Of a DNA stretch of 64,000 bases, positions 793 to 47,178 are shown piece after piece. The translations under genes and the position numbers were made by a program. The stretch is from assembly GCA_027923505.1 (NCBI GenBank), contig BROI01000008.1, positions 992,001-1,056,000 of the forward strand. The letters are read 5' to 3'. Source of the DNA: Mayamaea pseudoterrestris. Its lineage: Eukaryota. Positions within the stretch are counted from its first letter, which is position 1; every line of letters begins with the position of its first letter. The notes under the pieces are model-generated. The model searched no databases. It was not told the DNA's origin and was given only the letters and a program-made list of their open reading frames with translations.

Positions 793-1314
793 TTATACAA
801 CTGGATCACTGGCCTTGGTGTAAAATGAGATCAGTGCATCTGCCCGCTCCATCATATTCACTATTTTCAGCGACAAATCCTTCTTTCGTTGCTTCACCAG
901 ATCATTATCCGATAGCACAGTGTCAACGCTTGCTGCCAATAGATCCAAGTTATGACTTAACACTGCCAACTCCTGTCTTAGGTCAGCTGTCATCGGTTGA
1001 ACGTTTTTCTGCCACTCAATCAATATTGATGAAAAATTGGATTCTTCGGCCAAGTGTGCATTGTCCAAGGCGACTTCGAGCGCACGGATCGTGGTTTGCA
1101 GTGTCCTGGCATTGTTACTGGCATCATCTAAGGCTTCATGTGGCACCCTCGATTCTAGGGGATATGGCGAACCCTCCCATAGTAAACGTAATGTTCCATC
1201 ATAGCCATGTCGAGAAAGCAGTCTGTAAATGTAGAATGATGACGCGCTGAGAATAGTGGCAGTCACCACTCGTGCCCATGGGACAGCTGTGTGGTGGGGT
1301 GGTATTTTTATCAT
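793..1314 (-). CDS. BAG-domain protein with N-terminal hydrophobic segment
   Basis: C-terminal LDLLAASVDTVLSDNDLVKQRKKDLSLKIVNMMERADAL resembles BAG helices 2-3. Confidence 0.55.
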   Translation of the reverse strand: MIKIPPHHTAVPWARVVTATILSASSFYIYRLLSRHGYDGTLRLLWEGSPYPLESRVPHEALDDASNNARTLQTTIRALEVALDNAHLAEESNFSSILIEWQKNVQPMTADLRQELAVLSHNLDLLAASVDTVLSDNDLVKQRKKDLSLKIVNMMERADALISFYTKASDPVV

Positions 1315-1490
1315 TCTAGGACTTTTTCTTGAAACTTTTGTTCATAAAAGAGTGTAAGAAGTTATCTGCAGTCATGTCCTATGGACGAAATGGCCTTGGC
1401 GAATGAATGCAAGGCTTCAAACATGACACTATTTCTAGGGGATAAATAGCTATTTCTGCAATATAATGATCACACTGTGTCTGAGTACAT

Positions 1491-1563
1491 GGGAGCTTAG
1501 CTCAGTTGGTAGAGCGTCCGCTTCGCATGCGGAAGGTCTAGGGTTCGATTCCCTAAGTTTCCA
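1491..1563 (+). tRNA. tRNA-Ala, anticodon CGC
   Basis: Full cloverleaf: GGGAGCT/AGTTTCC acceptor stem with G3:U70, D arm GCTC/GAGC, anticodon arm TCCGC-TTCGCAT-GCGGA and T arm TAGGG-TTCGATT-CCCTA. It is followed by a TTTT Pol III terminator. Confidence 0.97.
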
Positions 1564-1959
1564 TTTTGCCAGTTGAGAGATAAGTATTTTGTTAGCTTAG
1601 GTAATAAAATTGTGACCCATGTGGCAACATACATGGGGGACTGCGGATAATCCGGCTCAGGGCGGATGCTTCGAGGAGACTGCCTTGGGGACACTCATAA
1701 GATACCCTTATGAGTACACTGTGATCGATAGTCACGTCATCAGTGGTGCGGGAGAGAAGAATGGGAACAGCTACCGACAACGGGCAGACCACATGCCGAT
1801 GTTGATCGGGTTGCCTCCCATTCCTTTGGTTAGCTTGCCGACCTTGTTGTTGTCTAGCAAGCTCTCTGAATTGGCTCTGAAGACTCCCAAAGTGCACTGT
1901 GAGTCCATTGCCTGGTTGTGGTTACTCAAGCAAAGTACAAAAGTCATTAAACCGTTGAT

Positions 1960-1983
1960 AATATATATATATATATTTATATA
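1960..1983. repeat. (TA)n microsatellite
   Basis: atatatatatatatatttatata. Confidence 0.8.
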
Positions 1984-2279
1984 CATTGACCTATCATAGG
2001 ATGACATGTAAATGGAAATTATGGTGGCAAGTTGCCGCCATGGCGATCCATTGCTCTTTTTCATGGCAAGGCTCGCAGATGTTGCATCCGGATTGCCCTC
2101 ACCGCCAGTACCCAACGGGCGCTCCAATGACTGTCCAGCTCGCCGTTGAGGCAGGGCCGGTGCACGTGAATCATGTTAGATAAGTGGCAGCGGCCTTCCT
2201 GTCATTGCAGGGTGCTGTAATTTAGCTCAATCATGGTAGATCAAACAAGGGAGCTGCGCAAACCTTAAACGTCTTGCCT

Positions 2280-3625
2280 TTATGGCTTGATTCATCAAAT
2301 ATTAACTTGGTCAGTCATCAATGTCATCATTGGCAAAAGGCAAATGGTAACAGTTCTATAATATGGACTTGTTGCATTAAATAAGGACTCCTTGAGCTTG
2401 GTAGGGTTGTAGACCTTTTTAAGGACTCGCTCGTCAACTTTAAAGTCATGAGTCAAGTGCAAGTGGTTTGCCTGAAGCAAACTTTCATTGACAATTGCTT
2501 CTCATTAAACGGAGATAGTGAGGATGTTGGCAACAAGCGGTATATCCAGAAACATGTCGCGTTGAAAGATGACAGTGCCGGGAGAGAGGTTGTCAAGAGC
2601 TCCACTTGATGCAACTCACGTTGTGTGCATTGCTGTCATGAGGCATTGCTTGATTATATTGTCAGCTTCCATAACATCTTTGGGGAGGATGGGCAGGTAC
2701 TAGCGTATGAAGCACATTCCCAATGACAAGATGGCAGCGCTCGCAGATGCTATTAGCAGTGGGCGTCTTGGCCGAAGCGGCTTGCCATTCAATCCCGTTG
2801 TATTCAAGGATGGTTCCAAATGCGCCTTTAAACTATTTGCCTTGATCCGCAACAAGTCGCATTGGTCAAAGATAACGAGAGAGCCAGTTGTCATCAAAGA
2901 GACGTCCGATATGGTACACCGACTTGTCCTGGTAGCAAACAATTTTGACAAGGTTAGTAGCTGGGTCAATCATTGTCAATGCTCTGAAATATCAGTCAAT
3001 GCCATTCACGGATACTTTCCATGGTCCCATGTGATCAATGTGGACCTCATACCAAGGCGCAACGCGCACGTCTCACACTGGCAGCTCTCCATATTGATGG
3101 CTGCCTCCTTTATTGCATTGGCAGGTATCGCAAGCTCCAACAAGATGCTCAACTAGCTGTTGAGCTTAGGAAGGTAAAAGTGGTGCTTGATGCTTGCCGT
3201 GAGGCAAGTCATACCAGTGTGGGCACTGACAAGTGGTGCTAAAGAATCAAACAATCTAAAATCTAAGAATCCAACGATCTAGAATCTCAATGGGGATGTA
3301 GATTTGCCATCACACAATCTAGGATCTCAATGGGGATGCAGATTCGCCAGCGTGCATCTGCTTGGAATACAACAATCTGAACGTCTCCAAGTTGTTTGTA
3401 TTGTATGTTTGTCGCTTCTTGATTTTGGACTGTGGCCATTAGCGCTGCATCTTCTTGTTGATACTCGGCAATGGTTGAATATGACAGGGGATATCTCCCT
3501 TGCTCATCAAACTCTGGATGAAGGAGCAGGCATTCTGCTAGCTCTGGTTTGTCCCATAGGAGACAGTAAGCTTCATTATGCTGGGTCACATCAAGCCATG
3601 TTAACACCCAAATTGCAGAAGTACG
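2280..3625 (-). mobile_element. Decayed Ty3/gypsy LTR-retrotransposon pol relic (integrase region)
   Basis: Minus-strand translation through stops gives PLSYSTIAEYQQED...RICIP (pre-HHCC region), PWYEVHIDHMGPW...ALTMIDPATNL, WLSRYL*PMRLVADQGK*FKG...TPTANSICERCH (rve core) and SPGTVIFQRDMFLD...QVNI**IKP. Confidence 0.85.
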
Positions 3626-6600
3626 GTGCAACTTCTCACCAGTCTCAGCCAGCAGCTGCCATGCCTTTCAAATGCCCATACCTTGACCCATGTGTACGCC
3701 CAAATCAAGCCAGATTGGTGCCAGCATCCATATTCAAAATGCGCAACAAGATAAGCTGACTGGCTGGTGCCTTGGTGGACTGCAATGTGATTGGTGATAA
3801 CTGGTCACCAGTCTCAGCCATTGTGCTCCCATGCCTTTCAAATGCCCATTGCTTGAGCCATGTGTATGCCCAAATCAAGCCAGAATACGCTAACATCCTC
3901 ATTTTCAGGTGCGCTACAAGAAAAGATGACTGGCTGGTGTCTCAGTGGAATGCAATGTGATGGTAATAACTTGTCACCAGTCTCAGCCAGCAGCTGCCAT
4001 GCCTTTCAAATGCCCATACCTTGAGCCATGTGTATGCCCAAATCAAGCCAGAATGGTAATGAAACCCTTATTTGCCATCATCACTATTCAGTCTATGCTA
4101 CAAGATGGTATGCCTGGTGGGCGCCCTTTTACTCTGCAATGTGATTGGTGACAAGGTGTCACCAGTCTCAGCCAGCAGATGCCTTGACATTCAATTGCCC
4201 ATCAAACATGCCAGGTATACACCCAAATCACACCAGAATTGGCGCCAACATCATTATTCAGTCTGCGCTACAAGATGGTATGCCTGGTGGGTGCCCTTGT
4301 AGACTGCAATTGGACTGGTGAGAACTTCCCACCAGTCTCAGCCCACAGATGCCCTGACATTCAATTGCTTCTAAAACATGCCATGTATGCACCCAAATCA
4401 TGCCAGAATGGTGCCAACCTAATTATTCAGTCTGCGCTAAAAAGTGGTATGCCTGGTGGGTGCCCTAGTAGACTGCAATGCAATTGGTGACAAGTTGTCA
4501 CCAGGTTTAGCCCGCATATGCCTTGCCATTCAATTGCTTCTAAAACATGCCAGGTATGCACCCAAATCACATCAGAATGGTGCCAACATCATTACTCAGG
4601 CTGCGCTACAAGATGGTAAGCTTGGCTTGTGTCTCAGGGGATGGCAATGTATTTGGTGACAACTTGTCACCAGTCTCAGCCCGCAGATGCCATGACATTC
4701 AAACACACCTACAGCAGGCCCTGTAGGTGCCCATATTACACCAGAATGGTGCCAACATCATTATTCAGGCTGCGCTACAAGATGGTAAGCTTGGCTGGTG
4801 TCTCAGGGGATGGCAATGTATTTGGTGACAACTTGTCACCAGTCTCAGCCCGCAGATGCCATGACATTCAGACACTCCTACAACAGGCCCTGTAGGAGCC
4901 AAAGATACACCAGAATGGTGCCAACATCATTACTCAGGCTGTGCTACAAGATGGTAGGTTTGGCTGGTGTCTCAGGAGATGGCGATGTATTTGGTGACAA
5001 CTTGTCACCAGTCTCAGCCCGCAGATGCCATGACATTCAGACACACCTACAGCAGGCCCTGTAGGTGCCCAAATTACACCAGAATGGTGCCAACATCATT
5101 ATTTAGGCTGCGCTACAAGATGGTAGGCTTGGCTGGTGTCTCAGGGGATGGCAATGTATTTGGCGACAACTTGTCACCAGTCTCAGCCCGCAGATGCCAT
5201 GACATTCAGACACTCCTACAGCAGGCCCTGTAGGTGCCCAAATTACACCAGAATGGTGCCGACATCATTAATCCGGCTGCGCTACAAGATGGTAGGCTTG
5301 GCTGGTGTCTCAGGGGATGGCAATGTATTTGGTGACAACTTGTCACCAGTCTCAGCCCGCAGATGCCATGACATTCAGACACTCCTACAGCAGGCCCTGT
5401 AGGTGCCTATATTACACCAGAATGGTGACAACATTATTATTCAGGCTGCGCTACAAGATGGTAGGCTTGGCTGGTGTCTCAGGGGATGGCAATGTATTTG
5501 GTGACAACTTGTCACCAGTCTCAGCCCGCAGATGCCATGACATTCAGACACACCTACAGCGGGCCCTGTAGGTGCCCAAATTACACCAGAATGGTGCCAA
5601 CATCATTATTCAGGCTGCGATACAAGATGGTAGGCTTGGCTGGTGTCTCAGGGGATGGCAATGTATTTGGCGACAACTTGTCACCAGTCTCAGCCCGCAG
5701 ATGCCATGACATTCAGACACTCCTACAGCAGGCCCTGTAGGTGCCCAAATTACACCAGAATGGTGCCAACATCATTAATCCGGCTGCGCTACAAGATGGT
5801 AGGCTTGGCTGGTGTCTCAGGGGATGGCAATGTATTTGGTGACAACTTGTCACCAGTCTCAGCCCGCAGATGCCATGACATTCAGACACATCTACAGCAG
5901 GCCCTGTAGGTGCCCATATTACACCAGAATGGTGCCAACATCATTATTCAGGCTGCGCTACAAGATGGTAGGCTCGGCTGGTGTCTCAGGGGATGGCAAT
6001 GTATTTGGTGACAACTCGTCACCAGTCTCAGCCCGCAGATGCCATGACATTCAGACACACCTACAGCAGGCCCTGTAGATGCCCAACTTACACCAGAATG
6101 GTGCCACCATCATTTTGGAGGCTGAGCTACAAGATGGTAGGCTTGGCTGGTGTCTCAGGGGATGGCAATGTATTTGGTGACGACTTGTCACCAGTCTCAG
6201 TCGCAGATGCCATGACATTCAAACACACCTACAGCAGGCCCTGTAGGTGCCCATATTACACCAGAATGGTGCCAACATCATTTTTCAGGCTGCGATACAA
6301 GATGGTAGGCTTGGCTGGTGTCTCAGGGGATGGCAATGTATTTGGTGACAACTTGTCACCAGTCTCAGCCCGCAGATGCCATGACATTCAGACACTCCTA
6401 CAGCAGGCCCTGTAGGTGCCTATATTACACCAGAATGGTGCCAACATCATTATTCAGGCTGAGCTACAAGATGGTAGGCTTGGCTGGTGTCTCAGGGGAT
6501 GGCAATGTATTTGGTGACAACTTGTCACCAGTCTCAGCCCGCAGATGCCATGACATTCAGACACTCCTACAGCAGGCCCTGTAGGTGCCTATATTACACC

Positions 6601-9600
6601 AGAATGGTGCCAACATAATTATTTTGGCTGCTCTACAAGATGGTAGGCTTGGCTGGTGTCTCAGGGGATGGCAATGTATTTGGTGACAACTTGTCACCAG
6701 TCTCAGCCCGCAGATGTCATAACATTCAGACACACCTACAGCAGGCCCTGTAGGTGCCCATATTACACCAGACTGGTGCCAACATCATTATTCAGGCTGC
6801 GCTCAAGATGGTAGGCTTGGCTGGTGTCTCAGGGGATGGCAATGTATTTGGTGACAACTTGCCACCAGTCTCAGCCTTCAGATGCCATGACATTCAGACA
6901 CTCCTACAGCTGGCCCTGTAGGAGCCCAAAATACACTGAAATGGTGCCGCCATCATTTTTCAGGCTGCGCTTCAAGATGGTAGGCTTGGCTGGTGTCTCA
7001 GGGGATGGCAATGTATTTGGTGACAACTTGTCACCAGTCTCAGCCCGCAGATGCCATGACATTCAGACACACCTACAGCAGGCCCTGTAGGTGCCCAAAT
7101 TACACCAGACTGGTGCCAACATCATTTTTCTGGCTGCGCTACAAGATGGTAGGCTTGGCTGGTGTCACAGGGGATGGCAATGTATTTGGTGACAACTTGT
7201 CACCAGTCTCAGCCCGCAGATGCCATGACATTCAGATACACCTACAGCAGGCCCTGTAGTTACCCAAATTACATAAGAATGGTGCCAACATCATTATTCA
7301 GGCTGCGATACAAGATGGTAGGCTTGGCTGGTGTCTCAGGGGATGGCAATGTATTTGGTGACAACTTGTCACCAGTCTCAGCCCGCAGATGCCATGACAT
7401 TCAGACACTCCTACAGCTGGCCCTGTAGGTGCCCAAATTACACCAGACTGGTGCCGCCATCATTTTTCAGGCTGCGCTACAAGATGGTAAGCTTGGCTGG
7501 TGTCTCAGGGGATGGCAATGTATTTGGTGACAACTTGTCACCAGTCTCAGCCCGCAGATGCCATGACATTCAGACACTCCTACAGCAGGCCCTGTAGGTG
7601 CCCAAATTACACCAGAATGGTGCCACCATCATTTTTCAGGCTGCGCTACAAGATGGTAGGTTTGGCTGGTGTCTCAGGGGATGGCAATGTATTTGGTGAC
7701 AACTTGTCACCAGTCTCAGCCCGCAGATGCCATGACATTCAAACACACCTACAGCAGGCCCTGTAGGTGCCCAAATTACACCAGAATGGTGCCAACATCA
7801 TTTTTCAGGCTGAGCTACAAGATGGTAGGCTTGGCTGGTGTCTCAGGTGATGGCAATGTATTTGGTGACAACTTGTCACCAGTCTCAGCCCGCAAATGCC
7901 ATGACATTCAGACACTCCTACAGCAGGCCCTGTAGGTGCGCAAATTACACCAGAATGGTGCCAACATCATTATTCAGGCTGCGCTACAAGATGGTAGGCT
8001 TGGCTGGTGTCTCAGGGGATGGCAATGTATTTGGTGACAACTTGTCACCAGTCTCAGCCCGCAGATGCCATGACATTCAAACACACCTACAGCAGGCCCT
8101 GTAGGTGCCCAAATTACACCAGAATGGTGCCAACATCATTTTTCAGGCTGAGCTACAAGATGGTAGGCTTGGCTGGTGTCTCAGGTGATGGCAATGTATT
8201 TGGTGACAACTTGTCACCAGTCTCAGCCCGCAGATGCCATGACATTCAGACACTCCTACAGCAGGCCCTGTAGGAGCCCAAAATACACCAGAATGGTGCC
8301 AACATCATTTTTCAGGCTGCGCTACAAGATGGTAGGCTTGGCTGGTGTCTCAGGGGATGGCAATGTATTTGGTGACAACATGTCACCAGTCTCAGCCCGC
8401 AGATGCCATGACATTCAGACACACCTACAGCAGGCCCTGTAGGTACCCATATTACACCAGACTGGTGCCAACATCATTTTGCAGGCCGCGCTCAAGATGG
8501 TAGGCTTGGCTGGTGTCTCAGGGGATGGCAATGTATTTGGTGACAACTTGTCACCAGTCTCAGCCCGCAGATGCCATGACATTCCGACACTCCTACAGCA
8601 GGCCCTGTAGGTGCCCATATTACACCAGAATGGTGCCAACATCATTATTCAATCTGCGCTACAAGATGGTAGGCTTGGCTGGTGTCTCAGGGAATGGCAA
8701 TGGATTTGGTGACAACTTGTCACCAGTCTCAGCCCGCAGATGCCATGACATTCAGACACTCCTACAGCAGGCCCTGTAGGTGCCCAAATTACACCAGAAT
8801 GGTGCCAACATCATTATTCAGGCTGCGCTACAAGATGGTAGGCTTGGCTGGTGTCTCAGGGGATGGCAATGTATTTGGTGACAACTTGTCACCAGTCTCA
8901 GCCCGCAGATGCCATGACATTCAAACACACCTACAGCAGGCCCTGTAGGTGCCCAAATTACATAAGAATGGTGCCAACATCATTTTTAGGCTGCGCTACA
9001 AGATGGTAGGCTTGGCTGGTGTCTCAGGGGATGGCAATGTATTTGGTGACAACTTGTCACCAGTCTCAGCCTGCAGATGCCATGACATTCAAACACACCT
9101 ACAGCAGGCCCTGTAGGTGCCCAAATTACACCAGACTGGTGCCAACATCATTTTTCAGGCTGCGCTACAAGATGGTAGGCTTGGCTGGTGTCACAGGGGA
9201 TGGCAATGTATTTGGTGACAACTTGTCACCAGTCTCAGCCCGCAGATGCCATGACATTCAAACACACCTACAGCAGGCCCTGTAGGTGCCCAAATTACAT
9301 AAGAATGGTGCCAACATCCTTGATCTGGCTGCGCTACAAGATGGTAGGCTTGGCTGGTGTCTCAGGGGATGGCAATGTATTTGGTGACAACTTGTCACCA
9401 GTCTCAGCCTGCAGATGTCATGACATTCAAACACACCTACAGCAGGCCCTGTAGGTGCCCAAATTACACCAGACTGGTGCCAACATCATTTTTCAGGCTG
9501 CGCTACAAGATGGTAGGCTTGGCTGGTGTCACAGGGGATGGCAATGTATTTGGTGACAACTTGTCACCAGTCTCAGCCCGCAGATGCCATGACATTCAGA

Positions 9601-12600
9601 CTCACCTACAGCAGGCCCTGTAGGTGCCCAAATTACACCAGAATGGTGCCAACATCAATATTCAGGCTGTGCTACAAGATGGAAGGCTTGGCTGGTGTCT
9701 CAGGGAATGGCAATGTATTTGGTGACAACTTGTCACCAGTCTCAGCCCGCAGATGCCATGACATTCAAACACACCTACAGCAGGCCCTGTAGGTGCCCAA
9801 ATTACACCAGAATGGTGCCAACATCAATATTCAGGCTGTGCTACAAGATGGAAGGCTTGGCTGGTGTCTCAGGGAATGGCAATGTAATAAGTGACAACTT
9901 GTCACCAGTCTCAGCCCGCAGATGCCATGACATTCAAACACACCTACAGCAGGCCCTGTAGGTGCCCAAAATACACCAGACTGGTGCCAACATCATTATT
10001 CAATCTGCGCTACAAGATGGTAGGCTTGGCTGGTGTCTCAGGGAATGGCAATGTATTTGGTGACAACTTGTCACCAGTCTCAGCCCGCAGATGCCATGAC
10101 ATTCAGACACTCCTACAGCAGGCCCTGTAGGTGCCCAAAATACACCAGAAGGGTGCCAACATCATTAATAATGCTGCGCTACAAGATGGTAGGCTTGGCT
10201 GGTGTCTCAGGGGATGGCAATGTATTTGGTGACATCTTGTCACCAGTCTCAGCCCGCAGATGCCATGACATTCAGACACTCCTACAGCAGGCCCTGTAGG
10301 TGCCCAAATTACACCCGAATGGTGCCAACATCCTTGATCTGGCTGCGCTACAAGATGGTAGGCTTGGCTGGTGTCTCAGGGGATGGCAATGTATTTGGTG
10401 ACAACTTGTCACCAGTCTCAGCCTGCAGATGTCATGACATTCAAACACACCTACAGCAGGCCCTGTAGGTGCCCAAATTACACCAGACTGGTGCCAACAT
10501 CATTTTTCAGGCTGCGCTACAAGATGGTAGGCTTGGCTGGTGTCACAGGGGATGGCAATGTATTTGGTGACAACTTGTCACCAGTCTCAGCCCGCAGATG
10601 CCATGACATTCAGACTCACCTACAGCAGGCCCTGTAGGTGCCCAAATTACACCAGAATGGTGCCAACATCAATATTCAGGCTGCGCTACAAGATGGAAGG
10701 CTTGGCTGGTGTCTCAGGGAATGGCAATGTAATAAGTGACAACTTGTCACCAGTCTCAGCCCGCAGATGCCATGACATTCAAACACACCTACAGCAGGCC
10801 CTGTAGGTGCCCAAAATACACCAGACTGGTGCCAACATCATTTTTCAGGCTGCGCTACAAGATGGTAGGCTTGGCTGGTGTCTCAGGGGATGGCAATGTA
10901 TTTGGTGACAACTTGTCACCAATCTCAGCCCGCAGATGCCATGACATTCCGACACTCCTACAGCAGGCCCTGTAGGTGCCCAAATTACACCAGGATGGTG
11001 CCAACATCATTATTCAATCTGCGCTACAAGATGGTAGGCTTGGCTGGTGTCTCAGGGAATGGCAATGTATTTGGTGACAACTTGTCACCAGTCTCAGCCC
11101 GCAGATGCCATGACATTCAGACACTCCTACAGCAGGCCCTGTAGGTGCCCAAAATACACCAGAAGGGTGCCAACATCATTAATAATGCTGCGCTACAAGA
11201 TGGTAGGCTTGGCTGGTGTCTCAGGGGATGGCAATGTATTTGGTGACATCTTGTCACCAGTCTCAGCCCGCAGATGCCATGACATTCAGACACTCCTACA
11301 GCAGGCCCTGTAGGTGCCCAAATTACACCCGAATGGTGCCAACATCATTATTCAGGCTGCGCTACAAGATGGTAGGCTTGGCTGGTGTCTCAGGGAATGG
11401 CAATGTATTTGGTGACAACTTGTCACCAGTCTCAGCCCGCAGATGCCATGACATTCAGACACTCCTACAGCAGGCCCTGTAGGAGCCCAAAATACACCCG
11501 AATAGTGCCAACATCATTATTCAGGCTGCGCTACAAGATGGTAGGCTTGGCTGGTGTCTCAGGGGATGGCAATGTATTTGGCGACAACTTGTCACCACTC
11601 TCAGGACCCAGATGCCATGACACACCTTACAGCAGGCCCTGTATGTACCCATATTACACCAGAATGGTGCCAACATCATTTTTCAGGCTGCGCTACAAGA
11701 TGGTAAGCTTGGCTGGTGTCTCAGGGGATGGCAATGTATTTGGTGACAACTTGTCACCAGTCTTAGCCCGCAGATGCCATGACATTCAGACACACCTACA
11801 GCAGGCCCTGTAGATGCCCAAATTACACCAGACTGGTGCCAACATCCTTGATCTGGCTGCGCTACAAGATGGTAAGCTTGGCTGGTGTCTCAGGGGATGG
11901 CAATGTATTTTGTGACAACTTGTCACCAGTCTCAGCCCGCAGATGCCATGACATTCAAACACTCCTACAGCAGGCCCTGTAGGTGCCTATATTACACCAG
12001 AATAGTGCCAACATCATTAATCCGGCTGCGCTACAAGATGGTAGGCTTGGCTGGTGTCTCAGGGAATGGCAATGTATTTGGTGACAACTTGTCACCAGTC
12101 TCAGCCCGCAGATGCCATGACATTCAGACACTCCTACAGCAGGCCCTGTAGATGCCCAAAATACACCAGAATGGTGCCACCACCATTTTTGAGGCTGCGC
12201 TACAAGATGGTAAGCTTGGCTGGTGTCTCAGGGGATGGCAATGTATTTGGTGACAACTTGTCACCAGTCTCAGCCCGCAGGTGCCATGACATTCAGACAC
12301 TCCTACAGCAGGCCCTGTAGGTGCCCAAATTACACCAGACTGGTGCCAACATCCTTGATCTGGCTGCGCTACAAGATGGTAGGCTTGGCTGGTGTCTCAG
12401 GGGATGGCAATGTATTTGGTGACAACTTGTCACCAGTCTCAGCCCGCAGATGCCATGACATTCAGACACTCCTACAGCAGGCCCTGTAGATGCCCAAATT
12501 ACACCAGAATGGTGCCACCACCATTTTTGTGGCTGCGCTACAAGATGGTAAGCTTGGCTGGTGTCTCAGGGGATGGCAATGTATTTGGTGACAACTTGTC

Positions 12601-15600
12601 ACCAGTCTCAACCCGCAGATGCCATGACATTCAGACACTCCTACAACAGGCCCTGTAGGAGCCCAAAATACACCAGACTGGTGCCAACATCATTGATCCG
12701 GCTGCGCTACAAGATGGTAGGCTTGGCGGGTGTCTCAGGGGATGGCAATGTATTTGGTGACAACTTGTCACCAGTCTCAGCCCGCAGATGCCATGACATT
12801 CAGACACTCCTACAGCAGGCCCTGCCCTGTAGGAGCCCAAAATACACCAGAATGGTGCCAACATCAATAATCAGGCTGCAATACAAGATGGTAGGCTTGG
12901 CTGGTGTCTCAGGGGATGGCAATGTATTTGGTGACAACTTGTCACCAGTCTCAGCCCACAGATGCCATGACATTCAGACACACCTACAGCAGGCCCTGTA
13001 GGTGCCCAAATTACACCAAATAGGTGCCAACATCTTTTTTCAGGCTGCGCTACAGGATGGTAGGCTTGGCTGGTGTCTCAGGGGATGGCAATGTATTTGG
13101 TGACAACTTGTCACCAGTCTCAGCCCGCAGATGCCATGACATTCAGACACACCTACAGCAGGCCCTGTAGGTACCCATATTACACCAGACTGGTGCCAAC
13201 ATCATTATTCAGGCTGCACTTAAGATGGTAGATTGGCTGGTGTCTCAGGGGATGGCAATGTCTTTGGTGACAACTTGTCACCAGTCTCAGCCCGCAGATG
13301 CCATGACATTCAGACACTCCTACAGCCGGCCCTGTAGGAGCCCAAAATACACCAGAATGGTGCCACCATCATTTTTCAGGCTGCGCTACAAGATGGTAGG
13401 CTTGGCTGGTGTCTCAGGGGATGGCAATGTATTTGGTGACAACTTGTCACCAGTCTCAGCCCGCAGATGCCATGACATTCAGACACTCCTACAGCAGGCC
13501 CTGTAGGTGCCTATATTACACCAGAATGGTGCCAACATAATTATTTTGGCTGCTCTACAAGATGGTAGGCTTGGCTGGTGTCTCAGGGGATGGCAATGTA
13601 TTTGGTGACAACTTGTCACCAGTCTCAGCCCGCAGATGCCATGACATTCAGACACTCCTACAGCAGGCCCTGTAGGAGCCCAAAATACCCAGAATGGTGC
13701 CAACAACAGTATTTAGGCTGCGCTATAAGATGGTAGACTTGGCTGGTGTCTCAGGGGATGGCAATGTATTTGGTGACAACTTGTCACCAGTCTCAGCCCG
13801 CAGATGCCATGGCATTCAAACACACCTACAGCAGGCCCTGTAGGTGCCCAAAATACACCAGAATGGTGCCAACATCATTATTCAGGCTGCACTTAAGATG
13901 GTAGACTTGGCTGGTGTCTCAGGGGATGGCAATGTATTTGGTGACAACTTGTCACCAGTCTCAGCCCGCAGATGCCATGACATTCAAACACACCTACAGC
14001 AGGCCCTGTAGGTGCCCAAATTACACCAAATAGGTGCCAACATCTTTTTTCAGGCTGCGCTATAAGATGGTAGGCTTGGCTGGTGTCTCAGGGGATGGCA
14101 ATGTATTTGGTGACAACTTGTCACCAGTCTCAGCCCGCAGATGCCATGACATTCAAACACACCTACAGCAGGCCCTGTAGGTGCCCATATTACACCAGAA
14201 TGGTGCCAACAACATTTTTCAGGCTGCGCTACAAGATGGTAGGCTTGGCTGGTGTCACAGGGGATGGCAATGTATTTGGTGACAACTTGTCACCAGTCTC
14301 AGCCCGCAGATGCCATGACATTCAGACACACCTACAGCAGGCCCTGTAGGTGCCCAAATTACACCAGAATGGTGCCAACATCATTATTCAGGCTGCGCTA
14401 CAAGATGGTAGGCTTGGCTGGTGTCTCAGGGGATGGCAATGTATTTGGTGACAACTCGTCACCAGTCTCAGCCCGCAGATGCCATGACATTCAGACACAC
14501 CTACAGCAGGCCCTGTAGATGCCCAACTTACACCAGAATGGTGCCAACATCATTTTGGAGGCTGAGCTACAAGATGGTAGGCTTGGCTGGTGTCTCAGGG
14601 GATGGCAATGTATTTGGTGACAACTTGTCACCAGTCTCAGCCCGCAGATGCCATGACATTCAGACACTCCTACAGCAGGCCCTGTAGGTGCCCAAAATAC
14701 ACCAGAATGGTGCCAACATCATTATTCAGGCTGCGCTACAAGACGGTAGGCTTGGCTGGTGTCTCAGGGGATGGCAATGTATTTGGTGGCAACTTGTCAC
14801 CAGTCTCAGCCCGCAGATGCCATGACATTCAGACACTCCTACAGCAGGCCCTGTAGGAGCCCAAAATACACCAGAATGGTGCCACCATCATTTTTCAGGC
14901 TGCGCTACAAGATGGTAGGTTTGGCTGGTGTCTCAGGGTATGGCAATGAATTTGGTGACAACTTGTCACCAGTCTCAGCCCGCCGATGCCATGACATTCA
15001 ACCACACCTACAGCAGGCCCTGTAGTGGCCCATATTACACCAGAATGGTGCCAACATCATTATTCAGGCTGTGCTAAAAGATGGTAGACATGGCTGGTGT
15101 CTCAGGGGATGGCAATATAGGTGCCCATATTACACTAGAATGGTGCCAACATCTTTGATAAGGCTGCGCTACAAGATGGTAGGTTTGGCTGGTGTCTCAG
15201 GGGATGGCAATGTATTTGGTGACAACTTGTCACCAGTCTCAGCCCGCAGGTGCCATGACATTCAGACACACCTACAGCAGGCCCTGTAGGTGCCCAAAAT
15301 ACACCAGAATGGTGCCTACATCATTGTTGAGGCTGCGTTAGAAGATGGTAGGCTTGGCTGGTGTCTCAGGGGATGGCAATGTATTTGGTGACAACTTGTC
15401 ACCAGTCTCAGCCTGCAGATGCCATGACATTCAAACACACCTACAGCAGGCCCTGTAGGTGTCCAAAATACACCAGAATGGGTGCCAACATCATTATTCA
15501 GGTTGCGCTACAAGATGGTAGGTTTGGCTGGTGTCTCAGGGGATGGCAATGTATTTGGTGACAACTTGTCACCAGTCTCAGCCCACAGATGCGAAGACAT

Positions 15601-15962
15601 TCAATTGCCCATATATCTTGCCATATAAGCACCTAAATCATACCAGAATCAACATCATTACTCAGTCTGCGCTACAAGATGTTATGCCTGTTGGGTGCCC
15701 TAGTAGACTGCAATGTGATTGGTAGCAAGTTGTCACCAGTCTCAGCCTGCAGATGCCGTGACTTTCAATTGCCCATATAACATGTCATGTATACATATAA
15801 ATCACACCAGAATGGTGCCAACATCATTATTCAGTCTGCGCTACAAGAAAAGATGACTGGCTGGTGTCTCAGTGGACTGCATTGTGATTGGTGATAACTG
15901 TCACCAGTCTCAGCCAGCACCAGCCATGCCTTTCAAAGGCCCATACCTTGAGTCATGTGTAT
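3625..15962. repeat. Satellite array, 169-bp monomer, about 73 copies (homogeneous core ~4600-15600)
   Basis: Direct 169-bp periodicity (ORF-track starts 4629, 4798, 4967...). Core consensus GTGTCTCAGGGGATGGCAATGTATTTGGTGACAACTTGTCACCAGTCTCAGCCCGCAGATGCCATGACATTCAGACACWCCTACAGCAGGCCCTGTAGGTGCCCAAATTACACCAGAATGGTGCCAACATCATTATTCAGGCTGCGCTACAAGATGGTAGGCTTGGCTG. Confidence 0.98.
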
Positions 15963-16091
15963 AGTGAGTCTACCGATTAGTGCACCGCACATCTAGACAG
16001 CTACTCGTATATAAGATGCTTGATTGTGGTACATGTTTGCGTTATGGTTAGTTAAAGTTAAGGTGGACTTAAACCAATCTGCAACCTGCAA

Positions 16092-16523
16092 TTAAAGAAT
16101 TGATCCAGAGTTGGAAGCAATACGAGGCCAAAGTTCTGCGCATTCCTTGGCGACTGGTCCAGAAACTGCCGAACCCTTCATCTCTCCCTTATTGTTAACA
16201 ATCACACCAGCCGAGTCCTCAAAATGAATAAATACACCCTCCTTTCTGCGAAAAGCCTTGCGTTGTCGGACAATAATTCCAGGAACAACCTTCTTTCGAA
16301 GCTCTGGCTTTCCCTTTTTGACACTGCACATGACCATGTCACCCGACGACGCCTTTGGAAGACGATTCAACCGACCACCAATGTTGCAAACGGCGATAAT
16401 GTGAAGATTCTTGGCGCCAGAGTTGTCAGCACAGTTGACAACGGCAGCCGTCGGCAGACCAGCCGTCACCTTGTGCTTGATACCGGCGGCAAGAGCGCGT
16501 CCTCGTTTTCCTTTCTCACCCAT
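16092..16523 (-). CDS. RPL23: 60S ribosomal protein L23 (uL14)
   Basis: [23 protein letters not shown] and [17 protein letters not shown]; intronless. Confidence 0.97.
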
Positions 16524-17005
16524 AATATATTAATAGAATTAAATATTCCTGAGATGAATATGAAAGCGAATAAGCAATGAGTACTGTGCGTCCCAAGCAG
16601 AAAATAACGTGCGAAATACAGTGGTCGACGACAATCCATCGCGCAAGACATCGCGCAAATGACTTTGATCCACGCTCCGGCGCTACAATGGAGCTCCTTC
16701 GTAAGCTTTAGCAGCAGTAACAACAACGACAACAAGGCATGAAACGGCATACCTGTAGACTCAAAAGGTCAAGGCAATGGTGCAATGCAAGCTGCAAGCT
16801 GATTGTCGGAGCCAGTCGAGTAACGCGGTAAGCGGTAATCGAGGAGCACAGTCGCTCACTTTCGTCGTTAGAACTCGATCCTTAACTTACATGATCGATC
16901 CACGTGGAGGATCTTTTGCCAACCAGCATCGAACGCTGTTCATCACTCGCAGCGACTCATCGCGGAGGAACAAGCAACCAACCGGCCAAAAGACTCCTTT
17001 CAACC

Positions 17006-42163: not shown

Positions 42164-42374
42164 TGTTGGATCTAGAATATATCTTGCGCGCCCTTGAAGC
42201 GACACTAATGATTAAGCAGAACAGAGTCAATAAAACCACTTTACTTATTTTCTCCAAGAAGTGATCGTCCTCGATCCACTCCTTCGGTTGCCGCTTACCG
42301 CGCTTACTTAAATGTGACCGTCTTCGTGACGTCACCGCTGCCGCTTCGGTTTGGGTTCTCATCCATGCTCAACA
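42164..42374 (-). repeat. 3' LTR
   Basis: TGTTGG...TCAACA, direct repeat of 47179-47389. Confidence 0.95.
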
Positions 42375-45300
42375 CACTCCTTTGGGCCGAGTAGTACTTA
42401 CTGCTCGAGGCCAGATTCATAACCAGGTTGCGGAGCTTGCCAAACTGGGCTCCCTGCAATGGTTTCGTGAAGAAATCCGCGACCATGTCTCCGGTCGGAC
42501 AATGCTCAATGTTGACTTCACCAGCTGCCACGCGATCTTTCACAAAGAAGTACCGAACATTCATGTGTCGCGTGCGCTTTGTACTTGAGCTTCTGCCATT
42601 CTTTTCCAACAGCATTGAACTCATATTGTCTTGATACAATTTCGTGTCTTTGACCCCGAAACCTTGCGCCTTCAGAAAATATCCTGTCCACAGCAACTGC
42701 GGTAGCACATCATGAACTCCCACAACTTCGCTCTCCGTCGAGCTTCTTGTTACCAACTTCTGTTTAGCCGACGTACTGTACACTGATCCTTGGCCAAGTG
42801 TCATTGTTCCACCAGTGTGACCCTTCATGTCTGGGTGCACCGCGTACGACGCATCCACCCACCACTGGACTATCCCGGACTGGTCCGCCTTCAGCGTCAA
42901 CACCATGTCCACGCTTCCGCGTAAATATTTAATCACTCTTGCAGCCTTCTTATAGTCGTCTTCGTCAGGCTGCTGCAGCCTCGTGCTCAAGAAAGAAATC
43001 GCTGTGCGAATATCCGGTCGCGCTCGCTGACTCAGATACAGACACTGCATCACAATCGTCACAAAAATCTGCTTCTTCGCTTCGCTCAACATGACAGGAT
43101 TTTCCGATATCTGAAACAAGTGACTGGCTGCCGGAGTAGCTGCCGTTCCATCCATGTCGTCTGGCGCATGATGCAGGATGTTCTTCACATAGTCAACCAT
43201 GTTGATTGCTACTTCTCCAGGCTTAGTATAGTCCAATACCATGCCGAGGTAGTCGTGCACTTTTCCGCGTGACTTATTCATTGGAGTCTCCTTGCCAAAC
43301 TCCTCATCCATCTGCGCGATGAACTCATCCACTACGCTCACGTCGACGTGCGAAATCTTCAAATCGTCCACGTGCCATCCCACGGTGATTTGCTTCCCAT
43401 TGACAATCTTGTTGCACACACACGGATCGTACGGGTTCTTCTCGAAGCCCCACTCAAGCAATTTTGCGGACAACTTCTCCCAGAATAGTCGCGCTGCTCG
43501 AAGCGTACCATAAAGCGCCATGAGTAATTCAACATACATGACTTTCTCGCCATTCTCCATTGTGACGCAAGGCTCGTACATCTCGCGATCAATTTCCAAC
43601 AGTAGCTCCACCATCTTCCCAGTGAAACGAACGTGCACCAACTCATCCATTTCCGCTTGCATGAAAGCACCCGGTACATCAACCACAGCAACCTCGCGCC
43701 CTTCCATAGCGTCAATGATAGCTGTCAGAAAGATGGCCTCTGTCGCTATCGTTGGAGATGCTGCGTCTTCCTTTGCAGTGTATGCTCGTTGCTTGCGTCC
43801 ATCCGCGCATCCGCGTCCCTTCACAGTCCCGCATCTCTTGCGCTTGAGAAACATCAAATACGCCAGAGCGTCCTTGCGCTGCTGCGGAGTCAGAGTGCAT
43901 TGGGGGACTGCCTTCATGACGTGCCTGTCGTGTAGCTGCTGCATTTCCTTGCGCACTGCCTCCACTCCAGCATCGCCAAAAGCCTTTAAACCTTGTCGCA
44001 TATTCATCTGTGCCGTGACGAGTGGCTCCGACACTTCCTCTGCAGCGTCGAGCGTGAACAAATGAGCGAACGAGCGAGGTTTGCGCGCACGCAGGCCATA
44101 CCGACCAGTGCGTGGGCCATAGCGCGCATCGAAATCCTCTTCGTCTGCAGCAGCTGGCACTCCTTCAATTTCGCCTTCATCGGGCACTCCTTCAATTTCG
44201 CCATCATCCACGGCTGGCGCGTCGTCAAGTTCGCCGTCAATGGCCTCACCATCCTCGTCGTTCGGCACTCCTTCGATTGCGCCGTCAGCACCATCGTCGT
44301 CGTCGTCGTCGTCATCGGTCGCATTCACTCCTTCGCTTCCGCCGGCAGAGTCGTCGTCACCGCGAGAAGCGTCGTCATCATAATCAGAGTCATCATCATC
44401 CTCGGCGTCATCTTCGTGCCACATGACTGGCTCAGCAGCCTCCGCAACACGGTGGCGGTCCATGAACACGATGCCCGGATTGGCCTTCTGTTGACGAGCG
44501 AGACGATGCACGCGCTCAATGACATCATCAGGCATGGGCAAAGGCGTAGCGTGCCCACGATTCAGAACTTTGCCCGAAGACAAACTGAGGAAATAAAACC
44601 CACCCTGCACATTACCAGTCGGGCGCAGAGCCAGCGCACCGATCGTGCGCGCCTGCATGTCATTGCTGTGCGACTCATGCGTTTGCACATACTGACCAAA
44701 TTCATACTTGCAATGCCGATTAAAGTCAACTGTCTGACCAGTCACAATAGTGCGTGGACTGAGATCCTTCGAAATGCCACGCTCGTTCGGAAACGCATTC
44801 AACCAAAACACGGCAGACTTCGTCATTTCGATAACCAAGCGTGCCGGCACGTGCTTAAATGGCAACGTGTTGTATGTCGCGCGCACCCGTTCTTTCACGA
44901 CACGGATAAAACGTTCAATTTCGCCAACGTGTTCATCCTCAGATGTCGCATTGAGCGCCACTCCGAGATCAGCCAACGCGCCAAGCATTGGAGCGAACTC
45001 CCCATCCATCAGAGCCGCGACGACACGGAACCCACCGCGTGCGTAAATCTTCAACACAGACTCGATTGCCTTCAACATAACCGGAAGCGTACGGTTTTGA
45101 ATCACCTCAACCGTAGCAAAACGAATGCTGCGGGAGAACGTCACCAACATAGGGACTTTGTTGATATACATGATGTCAGCACAAAGAGTAACGTCTCGAT
45201 AGCGACTCATGATAGCCGGTGGAAGCTGCTCAACAATCGCAGGCTTCACCAGATGCGACGCGCGACGCGTCGTCTTTCCTTTTAACGAGCCAACATCTGG

Positions 45301-47151
45301 TCCAAAGATGTGCTCAGCAGCCAGGATGTCGGCCTTCGTCACAGGACAGTTCGGCAACTGATTGCTAGTAACGATGCGCAGGTAATCCTTGAGGCTTGGC
45401 CGTCCAATTTTGATTTGCAGTTCCCTAGCTCTAACAGCGCGTAAATAGTCATCATTGGTGTAGTTAGTACGGTTATCGTCTACCGTAGTCAACATCGCCA
45501 CTCCATCCTTGACATCGCTGCGCTTGCCCTTCGAAAAGCTCTCGCAAACATACAGCCCAGAGTCAGTCTCGACAAACTCTCGCTGCTTACCATCCGGCTT
45601 CTCCACAACGAACATTGGACGATCCACGCCGTGCATGAGATACTCCACGGTAAACTTCTTGCGGACTTGCGCCAAACTCAAAATGTTCGCCAGTCCCTGC
45701 GGATACCACCACACCGGACCATAGCCCTCCAGGTCGCCCATCATGTTCGTCCTTACTGTACCAGCGTTGCACTTGATCACCATCCACGTTGGCACCGGGC
45801 GAATGTTCGTCAGCATCTTGGCGTTGCAGAACAGATCCACTGTCGACTGATTGTCCAAGAGCACAGCCTTCTTCGAGATGTTCACCTTCGGCGGCTGCGC
45901 GAACATGTATCCGACCTCATCGTCGTCATCGCTTTCTTCCTCGCTACCCAGCGTGAAGTGCTGCGCCCCACTAGCCTCTGCAGCCGGCGCACTCTCCGTA
46001 GACTCCGTTCTCGTAGGACAGTCTCGCTGCACATGACCAACCTGTTGACAGGTCCAGCATCTGGGAGGGTCACGCGCTGTACCAGTCGTGTGAAACGCCA
46101 CGCCCTCGTTCGTTGGCAACGTGGCTTCTCCATCCGCATGCTCACGACGCTGCATGATGTTGTATGCATCGTGGATCGTCAACGGGAAGTTGTCGTGCCC
46201 GTCGAGGTAGCAGTTGCGCAAGTGCTTGCAATACCCAGCGTATTCGCCCGTTGCGCCACGCACGAAAAGCATCGCAAGCTCGAGCTCTTCGGCGGCCTTG
46301 ATATCCTCCTTGTTCGCCTTGTTACGATTGTCATCCTTGGCAATGTTCAACGCCACAATCTCGTTGTGCATCGTGACGCCAACCGCCTTCGCCACGTCTG
46401 CCAGCGTGACCATGCTTTCGTAATATTTCTGCAGGCTTTCGCGCGCTCCTTGAGTACGTCCGAACAACTCAGCTTGAATGTCCACGACTTGATCCACAAG
46501 TTTGCAGCGCCCTTCGTACGTATGCGAGATCTCCTTGATAATCGCCAGCAACTTAATTCCGTCCGTGTCCTCCTCGGCGTCTCGGAACTTGGCGTGCGAC
46601 TTGACACGATCCTTCATACGCTCCGTGCATTGTCCATGCAACACGGCGTAGAGACCAGCGAGGAAGTCGGAGTATACACGCACGCGCTCGACATGCTCTT
46701 TCTTGTCGGCCTTGTATTCCTCGAGCATTATGGACCAGTCCGAGTCCGTCGTGTCGGCATCCTTCGTTGGACGTGCAGGCTCGTCAGGAATCTCCAGTTC
46801 CACGTTGCGCATGCCCTTGAGCAGCTCCTTGGTATATTTCTTGTAGGAGCGCCCGACGAAAGTGATGATCTCGTTCGTCGTACGGATGAATCCATCGGGA
46901 TCGCGCGAACCGTTATAGTCGTAGATGAATCCAGCGAGCGTCGGCTCGCTTCCTTGGAAATTTCCACTCGGCGCACGACTCGGTCCGTTGAGTCTGTTAC
47001 CATTGCCTTGATTCCCGGAACGATTCCCAGCACGATTCCCACGACGATAATGACGGTTGCGTCGGTTTCCTTCGCTTGCTGGCGGAGCGGGAGGTGCACC
47101 TCCACCGCTCGACGCCGCTCCTGTCGTCGGAGTATTGCTCGTCGAAGACAT
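42304..47151 (-). CDS. Copia Gag-Pol polyprotein (1615 aa)
   Basis: CWTCQQVGHVQRDC zinc knuckle, LLDNQS protease, integrase D-D-E core, RT HVDD and RNase H VDASY...ADFFTKPL, in the PR-IN-RT-RH order. Confidence 0.97.
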   Translation of the reverse strand: MSSTSNTPTTGAASSGGGAPPAPPASEGNRRNRHYRRGNRAGNRSGNQGNGNRLNGPSRAPSGNFQGSEPTLAGFIYDYNGSRDPDGFIRTTNEIITFVGRSYKKYTKELLKGMRNVELEIPDEPARPTKDADTTDSDWSIMLEEYKADKKEHVERVRVYSDFLAGLYAVLHGQCTERMKDRVKSHAKFRDAEEDTDGIKLLAIIKEISHTYEGRCKLVDQVVDIQAELFGRTQGARESLQKYYESMVTLADVAKAVGVTMHNEIVALNIAKDDNRNKANKEDIKAAEELELAMLFVRGATGEYAGYCKHLRNCYLDGHDNFPLTIHDAYNIMQRREHADGEATLPTNEGVAFHTTGTARDPPRCWTCQQVGHVQRDCPTRTESTESAPAAEASGAQHFTLGSEEESDDDDEVGYMFAQPPKVNISKKAVLLDNQSTVDLFCNAKMLTNIRPVPTWMVIKCNAGTVRTNMMGDLEGYGPVWWYPQGLANILSLAQVRKKFTVEYLMHGVDRPMFVVEKPDGKQREFVETDSGLYVCESFSKGKRSDVKDGVAMLTTVDDNRTNYTNDDYLRAVRARELQIKIGRPSLKDYLRIVTSNQLPNCPVTKADILAAEHIFGPDVGSLKGKTTRRASHLVKPAIVEQLPPAIMSRYRDVTLCADIMYINKVPMLVTFSRSIRFATVEVIQNRTLPVMLKAIESVLKIYARGGFRVVAALMDGEFAPMLGALADLGVALNATSEDEHVGEIERFIRVVKERVRATYNTLPFKHVPARLVIEMTKSAVFWLNAFPNERGISKDLSPRTIVTGQTVDFNRHCKYEFGQYVQTHESHSNDMQARTIGALALRPTGNVQGGFYFLSLSSGKVLNRGHATPLPMPDDVIERVHRLARQQKANPGIVFMDRHRVAEAAEPVMWHEDDAEDDDDSDYDDDASRGDDDSAGGSEGVNATDDDDDDDDGADGAIEGVPNDEDGEAIDGELDDAPAVDDGEIEGVPDEGEIEGVPAAADEEDFDARYGPRTGRYGLRARKPRSFAHLFTLDAAEEVSEPLVTAQMNMRQGLKAFGDAGVEAVRKEMQQLHDRHVMKAVPQCTLTPQQRKDALAYLMFLKRKRCGTVKGRGCADGRKQRAYTAKEDAASPTIATEAIFLTAIIDAMEGREVAVVDVPGAFMQAEMDELVHVRFTGKMVELLLEIDREMYEPCVTMENGEKVMYVELLMALYGTLRAARLFWEKLSAKLLEWGFEKNPYDPCVCNKIVNGKQITVGWHVDDLKISHVDVSVVDEFIAQMDEEFGKETPMNKSRGKVHDYLGMVLDYTKPGEVAINMVDYVKNILHHAPDDMDGTAATPAASHLFQISENPVMLSEAKKQIFVTIVMQCLYLSQRARPDIRTAISFLSTRLQQPDEDDYKKAARVIKYLRGSVDMVLTLKADQSGIVQWWVDASYAVHPDMKGHTGGTMTLGQGSVYSTSAKQKLVTRSSTESEVVGVHDVLPQLLWTGYFLKAQGFGVKDTKLYQDNMSSMLLEKNGRSSSTKRTRHMNVRYFFVKDRVAAGEVNIEHCPTGDMVADFFTKPLQGAQFGKLRNLVMNLASSSKYYSAQRSVLSMDENPNRSGSGDVTKTVTFK

Positions 47152-47178
47152 GTCTTTTCACTCGCTTCTTGGAGAAAA

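What the first reader, a model, noticed from the sequence alone, without database searches (positions are those of the whole stretch)
3625..15962. Mirror-image age layers around the homogeneous core of the array
Seen: the outermost left monomers (3913-4036, GCTACAAGAAAAGATGACTGG...GCCTTTCAAATGCCCATACCTTGAG) match the outermost right monomer (15840-15962) much better than they match the core. A second subtype (ATGCCTG(G/T)TGGGTGCCCTAGTAGACTGCAAT) lies just inside on both sides (~4450 and ~15683). The order is A-B-core-B-A. Inference: a new variant expanded inside an older array and pushed it apart, as in the layered expansion described for primate alpha satellite.
Basis: partly seen in the sequence, partly recalled or inferred. 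Interest (0 to 1): 0.75.

Follow-up and report, generated by a model that had tools for sequence, protein, structure and literature searches.

The report
Nested satellite layers in a diatom
A 12-kb block of a 169-base tandem repeat in a diatom has a young, uniform core wedged between matching remnants of two older versions of the same repeat, a miniature of the layered growth known from human centromeres, although nothing here shows that the block is a centromere.

Summary
Confirmed. The array (3625-15962) reads A,A,A,B,B,B, core C (65 units), C/B hybrid, B, A. Left and right A units group together, as do the B units (tree support 100/99 and 99/94); both are only 68-76% like the core. A, B and C are genome-wide subfamilies, not decayed core copies. 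The inner A pair shares a 23-mer found nowhere else in the 30.6-Mb assembly, which favours one old array split in two.

Refinements: C did not arise here. About 5,800 C units (estimate) lie in at least 53 small arrays on 28 contigs. Old units sit at array ends and join C by sharp in-phase switches (22 of 30 junctions). The best reading is import by recombination followed by local growth. A full two-layer mirror is rare (only this array among 30 seen at both ends), and divergence does not show A older than B. Centromere function is untested.

The parts
3625..4096 (+). Left A layer: one partial and two full A-subfamily units; the last turns B-type near its 3' end
4058..4073 (+). 16 extra bases at the left A-to-B join; resembles the end of an A unit followed by a restart in B, i.e. 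a join slipped by about 16 bases (inference)
   Evidence: sequence; unit length 184; site painting
4097..4604 (+). Left B layer: three B-subfamily units; the last switches to C between unit positions 133 and 165
4605..15506 (+). Core: 64 full C-subfamily units and one deleted unit, 93.9% pairwise; CpG observed/expected 0.19
9333..11360 (+). Recent tandem duplication of a six-unit block (989 of 1014 bases identical)
15073..15167 (+). Core unit with an internal deletion of about 74 bases
15507..15670 (+). C/B hybrid unit; single switch between unit positions 88 and 99
15671..15839 (+). Right B unit, same B sub-variant as the three left B units
15840..15962 (+). Right A unit (partial, positions 1-124); closest sampled relative is the left unit at 3913
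1989..3578 (.). Left neighbour: decayed dispersed repeat, about 81% like copies on several other contigs; LTR-retrotransposon-like by layout (inferred)
   Evidence: CpG o/e 0.59
16104..16523 (-). Right neighbour: ribosomal protein L23 (uL14) gene, about 140 bases from the array end; named top hits are diatoms and a bolidophyte

Best explanation
Serial invasion of an old satellite array by younger subfamilies of the same 169-bp family. Step 1 (inferred): a B block entered a short A array near a unit boundary and left sibling A units on both sides. Step 2 (junctions shown, pathway inferred): C units from another locus were copied into the B block by homology-directed repair (interlocus gene conversion or break-induced replication with a switch back), making in-phase hybrid units at both ends. 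Step 3 (shown): the C block grew locally by out-of-register duplication and pushed the old units apart. The old units, now about 25-30% different from the core, stopped recombining with it and remain as fossils. The same C wave reached dozens of small arrays across the genome. No kinetochore is needed for this, and the arrays are most simply methylated heterochromatin islands.
For: Order and clades. Four subfamilies among 1343 near-full units, identity to own consensus A 88.9, B 89.9, D 93.5, C 96.4%; site patterns favour (A,B)|(D,C) 5:2:0. Local kinship: the 23-mer shared by units 3913 and 15840 occurs 2 times in the assembly; 3913 is the best match of 15840 among 204-207 sampled A units although the pool was picked for likeness to 3913; all four B edge units share a sub-variant held by 18 of 127 sampled B units, and 3 of 7 genome hits of a B motif lie at these two edges. 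Edge bias: A/B among the outer three units at 32 of 108 array ends, 18 of 82 in arrays picked from C hits, against 3 of 1523 interior units. Junctions: 22 of 30 same-strand old-to-C joins are one clean switch in phase. Local growth: 70% of core units have their nearest neighbour in this array, and one allele is at 47% here versus 2% elsewhere; six-unit block duplication. The two C junctions lie at different unit positions (133-165 and 88-99) and the B pieces are only 72% alike over positions 98-133, which fits a two-crossover event better than one circle integrating.
Against: Kinship of the A pair is modest: over positions 1-124 unit 3913 is closer to a unit on contig C33 (95.1%) than to 15840 (94.3%), and a tree of 119 of 216 A units gives the pair no supported set. 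The 23-mer was chosen after seeing the pair. The right B unit ranks its best left partner only 5th of 111. Two-sided old flanks are no commoner than chance (4 of 30; 16 one-sided, 10 none). A lies outside B at only 4 of 5 ends that carry both, two of them this array's. A and B are equally diverged. In arrays without C, B precedes A in 6 of 7 and none reads A-B-A (read by eye). No mirror pattern inside the core. BIC preferred three classes to four, and B and D are not single clades in a sample tree.
Confidence: 0.68

Rival explanations
1. Asymmetric assembly: C blocks join old arrays at one end (one crossover, segmental duplication, block transfer), and the mirror here is a coincidence of two such joins or a later copying of one edge to the other.
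For: One-sided old flanks are four times commoner than two-sided ones and two-sidedness fits independence. Edges do move between contigs with their flanks: C34:180k and C1:2190k share units and 1.2 kb of flank. 5 of 32 old flanks are inverted. One end reads B-A-C. Shepelev et al. 2009 list a 'segment cut off' scenario of this kind.
Against: The assembly-unique 23-mer and best-match rank of the A pair and the shared B sub-variant need local common descent; the A pieces break at nearly complementary positions (about 162 on the left, 166-12 on the right). Independent loss of flanks after a symmetric event also gives independence.
Confidence: 0.17
2. Kinetochore-driven layered expansion: the C arrays are the current centromere units of dispersed (holocentric or polycentric) chromosomes, and A, B and D are former centromere repeats displaced outward.
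For: Nucleosome-sized unit; kb-sized arrays, several per contig (six clusters on the 0.97-Mb contig C12), next to genes, like Tyba in Rhynchospora (172 bp, about 20-kb arrays across euchromatin); copia elements sit inside arrays; C spread to at least 28 contigs.
Against: No CENH3 data. Centromeres described in two other diatoms are short low-GC regions, and one per chromosome is the working assumption, whereas this array is 51% GC. Drosophila euchromatic satellites invade older clusters without being centromeres. Large A-only and D-only arrays persist elsewhere. The assembly may lack larger arrays.
Confidence: 0.1
3. Classical edge decay: the ends are core copies that escaped homogenisation and drifted.
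For: 19 of 108 terminal units are unassigned, that is decayed or hybrid, so edge decay does occur in this family.
Against: The edge units carry the diagnostic alleles of subfamilies that form their own arrays elsewhere; the switch to C is sharp, not graded; left and right edges cluster together.
Confidence: 0.02
4. The whole A-B-C-B-A block is a mobile unit (a transposon with an internal tandem repeat and fixed ends), or an assembly artefact.
For: Most arrays border other repeats; some composite blocks recur on different contigs.
Against: Array end positions are spread over the unit; DNA next to this array matches no other fetched array flank; no other of 30 arrays seen at both ends has this layout; the right A-to-unique join is in contigs of two studies.
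Confidence: 0.03

Closest known systems
Layered expansion of primate alpha satellite (Shepelev et al. 2009, PMC2729386; abstract and sections 9 and 12 read)
   Same: Discrete subfamily layers, partly symmetrical around a homogeneous core; the core less diverged than the flanks; the same layers on different chromosomes; new variants come by interchromosomal transfer, insert, amplify and move the remains sideways.
   Different: Layers here are 1-7 units at most C-array ends, not hundreds of units; arrays are many per contig and touch genes; the two outer layers are equally diverged; the core is not shown to be an active centromere.
Rsp-like satellite invading 1.688 clusters in Drosophila X euchromatin (Sproul et al. 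2020, PMC7403614; passages read)
   Same: A young satellite spreads to many small euchromatic clusters by entering pre-existing clusters of an older satellite; interlocus gene conversion, template switching and eccDNA are the proposed routes.
   Different: There the two satellites are different families joined at 4-7 bp microhomologies; here they are subfamilies of one family joined in phase, and the process appears to have run more than once.
Tyba repeat-based holocentromeres of Rhynchospora (bioRxiv 10.64898/2026.01.17.700053; passages read)
   Same: About 170-bp unit, short arrays interspersed with genes, transposon fragments at the borders and LTR elements inside.
   Different: Tyba co-localises with CENH3; nothing of the kind is tested here. 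The words 'layer' and 'edge' do not occur in that paper's main text. Arrays here look smaller (median 5.3 kb for 41 uninterrupted pieces seen at both ends).
Described diatom centromeres (Phaeodactylum, bioRxiv 10.1101/096016; Fistulifera, bioRxiv 10.1101/2021.11.10.468027; passages read)
   Same: Same group of organisms.
   Different: Those are short low-GC, non-satellite regions; this array is a 51% GC satellite.

Membership tests
Layered satellite expansion (alpha-satellite type) | Discrete subfamily layers, partly symmetrical around a homogeneous core | tested here: met
   for this array; both sides old in 4 of 30 arrays
Layered satellite expansion (alpha-satellite type) | Divergence falls toward the core, layer by layer | tested here: inconclusive
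   Core far less diverged than flanks (94 vs 82% pairwise), but A and B are equal
Layered satellite expansion (alpha-satellite type) | The same layers on non-homologous chromosomes | tested here: met
   A on 41, B on 32, C on 36 of the 81 stretches then held (stretches were chosen from hits to these types); edges
Layered satellite expansion (alpha-satellite type) | Conserved order of layers between chromosomes | tested here: inconclusive
   Old outside C is strong; A outside B at 4 of 5 ends only
Layered satellite expansion (alpha-satellite type) | Core is the active centromere (CENH3/CENP-A bound) | not testable with these tools
   No chromatin data
Monocentric satellite centromere | One major array per chromosome | tested here: not met
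   At least 53 C clusters on 28 contigs, up to six on one contig; caveat: contigs are not proven chromosomes and larger arrays may be unassembled
Repeat-based holocentromere (Tyba type) | Short arrays of one satellite dispersed along all chromosomes among genes | tested here: inconclusive
   Dispersal seen but only about 40% of C units were fetched, so spacing and evenness are not measured
Repeat-based holocentromere (Tyba type) | Arrays bind CENH3; line-like kinetochores | not testable with these tools
   No chromatin or cytology data
Low-GC diatom centromere | Short low-GC region | tested here: not met
   Array GC 0.50-0.52 against 0.45-0.56 in the rest of the window
Transposon with internal tandem repeat | Fixed ends and shared flanks between copies | tested here: not met

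The most novel reading that the evidence does not exclude
The dispersed C arrays are the centromere units of a holocentric or polycentric diatom, and each records in miniature the genome-wide replacement of one centromere repeat by the next (A, B, D, C). That would be a repeat-based dispersed centromere in a group whose described centromeres are short AT-rich regions, with dozens of replicate layer records in a 30-Mb genome.
Probability: 0.1. Interest if true: 0.9.

Novelty: new variant of a known kind. Interest (0 to 1): 0.5.

Why it matters
Layered expansion is usually explained by the kinetochore favouring and amplifying a new repeat variant. This genome holds more than 50 small arrays of one family, many with fossil edges and readable junctions. 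One CENH3 experiment splits the question. If the arrays lack CENH3, ordinary recombination is enough to build alpha-satellite-like layers. If they carry it, the alga has a dispersed satellite centromere unlike those described in diatoms. The pattern itself is known from primates and, in another form, from Drosophila, so the single array is a good example rather than a new principle.

Tried and rejected
1. Mirror structure inside the core: no signal at five trial centres (Spearman -0.05 to 0.03, P 0.31-0.70).
2. A first count of 9 of 10 ends with A outermost (P values printed) was dropped: four of the inner 'B/D' units are A/C hybrids or mosaics. The honest count is 4 of 5.
3. A fixed breakpoint at the unit's palindrome: array ends are spread over the unit, and the unit folds no better than shuffles (z -1.4).
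4. Single-circle integration for the core: the two junction positions differ and the B pieces are not duplicates.
5. Structured RNA in 1000-17000: only the tRNA.
6. AT-rich centromere candidates by runs of 26 A/T: eight scattered places, uninformative.
7. Runs X2 and X3 (other organism labels) hold the repeat and thin cover of the unique flank; this may be carry-over and is not used as evidence of the repeat in other species. Summed contig depth was not used as a copy number.
8. Phage tblastn and exact look-up of the L23 protein gave nothing useful.
9. Left-right kinship in other arrays is mixed: rank 1 of 136 at C14:658k, 3 of 231 at C19:610k, 70 of 124 at C20:613k (best ranks quoted, other units ranked lower).

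Full report
What is there. The window holds one tandem array of a 169-bp unit from 3625 to 15962. It lies between a decayed dispersed repeat and a ribosomal protein L23 gene whose named top hits are diatoms and a bolidophyte. The window is G000:C8:992001-1056000 of a 30.6-Mb assembly in 41 contigs. Cut into units, the array reads A(partial), A, A, B, B, B, 64 full core units and one deleted unit, a hybrid, B, A(partial). The right A unit is 85-94% like the left A units and 71.5% like the core consensus. The right B unit is 82-88% like the left B units and 75.7% like the core. Core units are 93.9% alike. A tree of 73 units separates A (100/99) and B (99/94), each with left and right members.

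The three types are genome-wide. A core 20-mer occurs 4076 times; scaled by the share of sampled units that hold it, C has about 5,800 copies and A roughly 325 (rough estimates). A and B queries hit many short arrays on many contigs (lower bounds). I fetched 133 stretches, chosen from hits to A, B or C, and found 3143 units including the window's. A mixture model on 1343 near-full units gave A, B, C and an intermediate class D at four classes, with identity to own consensus 88.9, 89.9, 96.4 and 93.5%; BIC slightly preferred three classes. Consensus site patterns group A with B and D with C (5:2:0). In a sample tree A and C are each one side of a branch, while B and D are not. C clusters number at least 53 on 28 contigs, six of them on C12.

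Edges are not decayed core. The window's B units carry 17-21 of 22 B-diagnostic alleles and its A units 19/23, 29/33, 24/36 and 21/27 A-diagnostic alleles. Across fetched arrays, A or B units lie among the outer three at 32 of 108 ends (27 same strand, 5 inverted). In arrays picked from C hits alone the figure is 18 of 82, against 3 of 1523 interior units (the limits of some of those stretches were set knowing A/B hits). Many of the C-only ends are borders with inserted repeats.

Were the two flanks once one array? For: the 23-mer shared by units 3913 and 15840 occurs only at those two places in the assembly. Unit 3913 is the best match of 15840 among 204-207 sampled A units. The pair shares 10 private 20-mers, while only 49 of 21,013 between-locus pairs share four or more. 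All four B edge units belong to a sub-variant held by 18 of 127 B units. The left A block ends near unit position 162 and the right A unit starts between 166 and 12. Against: the motif was chosen after the fact; over positions 1-124 unit 3913 is slightly closer to a C33 unit (95.1%); and a tree of 119 of 216 A units does not resolve the pair. I take local descent as likely, not proven.

How C got in. Painted by diagnostic sites, 22 of 30 same-strand old-to-C junctions are one clean switch with the unit phase kept (two of the 30 are copies of one duplicated locus). Many switches fall in the longest identical tracts between subfamilies (positions 49-87, 134-164 and 166-14). Here the switches are at 133-165 on the left and 88-99 on the right, and the B pieces are not duplicates, so a two-crossover or template-switch event fits better than one circle integrating. 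The core shares its consensus changes with arrays on C6 and C14, yet 70% of its units have their nearest neighbour inside the array and one allele is at 47% here versus 2% elsewhere. A six-unit block is duplicated in tandem (989 of 1014 bases). So the core was seeded from outside and grew in place. Which repair pathway did the seeding is inference.

Limits of the age-layer picture. A and B are equally diverged, so 'A older than B' rests on position here and on the ladder topology, which has no root. A lies outside B at 4 of 5 ends that carry both; two of those are this array's and one end reads B-A-C. Of 30 arrays seen at both ends, 4 have same-strand old flanks on both sides, 16 on one and 10 on none, as independence predicts (P=0.82). 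Only this array has the full A-B-C-B-A. There is no mirror pattern within the core.

Chromatin hints. CpG observed/expected is 0.15-0.19 in all layers against about 1.1 in the genic flank, and transitions at consensus CpG sites run several-fold above other C/G sites in B, C and D. This fits long-term methylation (inference). Copia elements and blocks of a second tandem repeat sit inside other arrays.

Comparison. The pattern works like the interchromosomal transfer and amplification scenario for alpha satellite (PMC2729386; abstract and two sections read) and like Rsp-like repeats entering 1.688 clusters in Drosophila (PMC7403614; passages). It is not a member of the monocentric satellite-centromere class as far as this assembly shows. 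The dispersal recalls Tyba arrays (10.64898/2026.01.17.700053; passages), but described diatom centromeres are low-GC regions (10.1101/096016 and 10.1101/2021.11.10.468027; passages). Searches for diatom satellites (listings only) and for subfamily edges in dispersed arrays showed no paper on this family or on such layers in a diatom. The library lacks most subscription journals, and supplements were not read. Earlier scan notes describe the same 169-bp family in other windows; none matched a word search for layers.

Verdict. Real and well supported as an observation. Best read as recombinational invasion of an old array by a younger genome-wide subfamily followed by local growth (0.68). A new variant of a known kind; interest 0.5, because the many replicate arrays make it testable whether layering needs a kinetochore.

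Noticed in passing
L006:1710-2758 and 4301-5344, L007:3599-5177, L092:4095-6064, L093:4853 onward: Blocks of a second tandem repeat (period about 181 bp) interrupt C arrays with the same junction phase on C7 and C12 (unit position 74, insert, position 53-54), so composite two-satellite blocks seem to have been copied between contigs.
   Followed up: partly
L090:5525-10000 with L091:1-2228; L006:6537-10000 with L007:1-3234: A 6.7-kb copia-type retrotransposon with long open frames sits inside C arrays on C2 and C7; related short inserts lie at unit positions about 73-82 in L050, L092 and L096, hinting at a preferred insertion phase.
   Followed up: partly
L049:1-3500 and L075:166-3500: The arrays at C34:180k and C1:2190k share their A units, the A/C junction and about 1.2 kb of flank: a segmental duplication that carried an array edge.
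   Followed up: partly
L005:557-947 and 9157-9493; also L078, L023, L046, L131: Some C arrays are flanked by A or B units on the opposite strand; at C7:363-372k this is so on both sides.
   Followed up: partly
L062:1858-5900: A B-type cluster on C3 lies in a long inverted duplication with a 1.6-kb centre.
   Followed up: no
window 1490-1564: tRNA-Ala gene about 2 kb left of the array.
   Followed up: no
window 1642-1868: A 227-bp dispersed repeat, 95-100% like copies elsewhere, several of which lie in or beside satellite arrays (C14:737k and 746k, C10:424k, C25:437k).
   Followed up: no
window 14277-14295 and the same place in most units: Each unit carries a palindrome at positions 50-68, within the longest tract shared by all subfamilies; it could be a protein-binding site, untested.
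   Followed up: partly
window 42304-47157 (-): Long copia-type open frame (RVT_2, zinc knuckle), already noted by the scan.
   Followed up: no
L047:1405-8973; L069:18-8499: A 45-unit array made only of A units (C1) and an array of at least 50 D units (C30): older subfamilies also form long arrays of their own.
   Followed up: no
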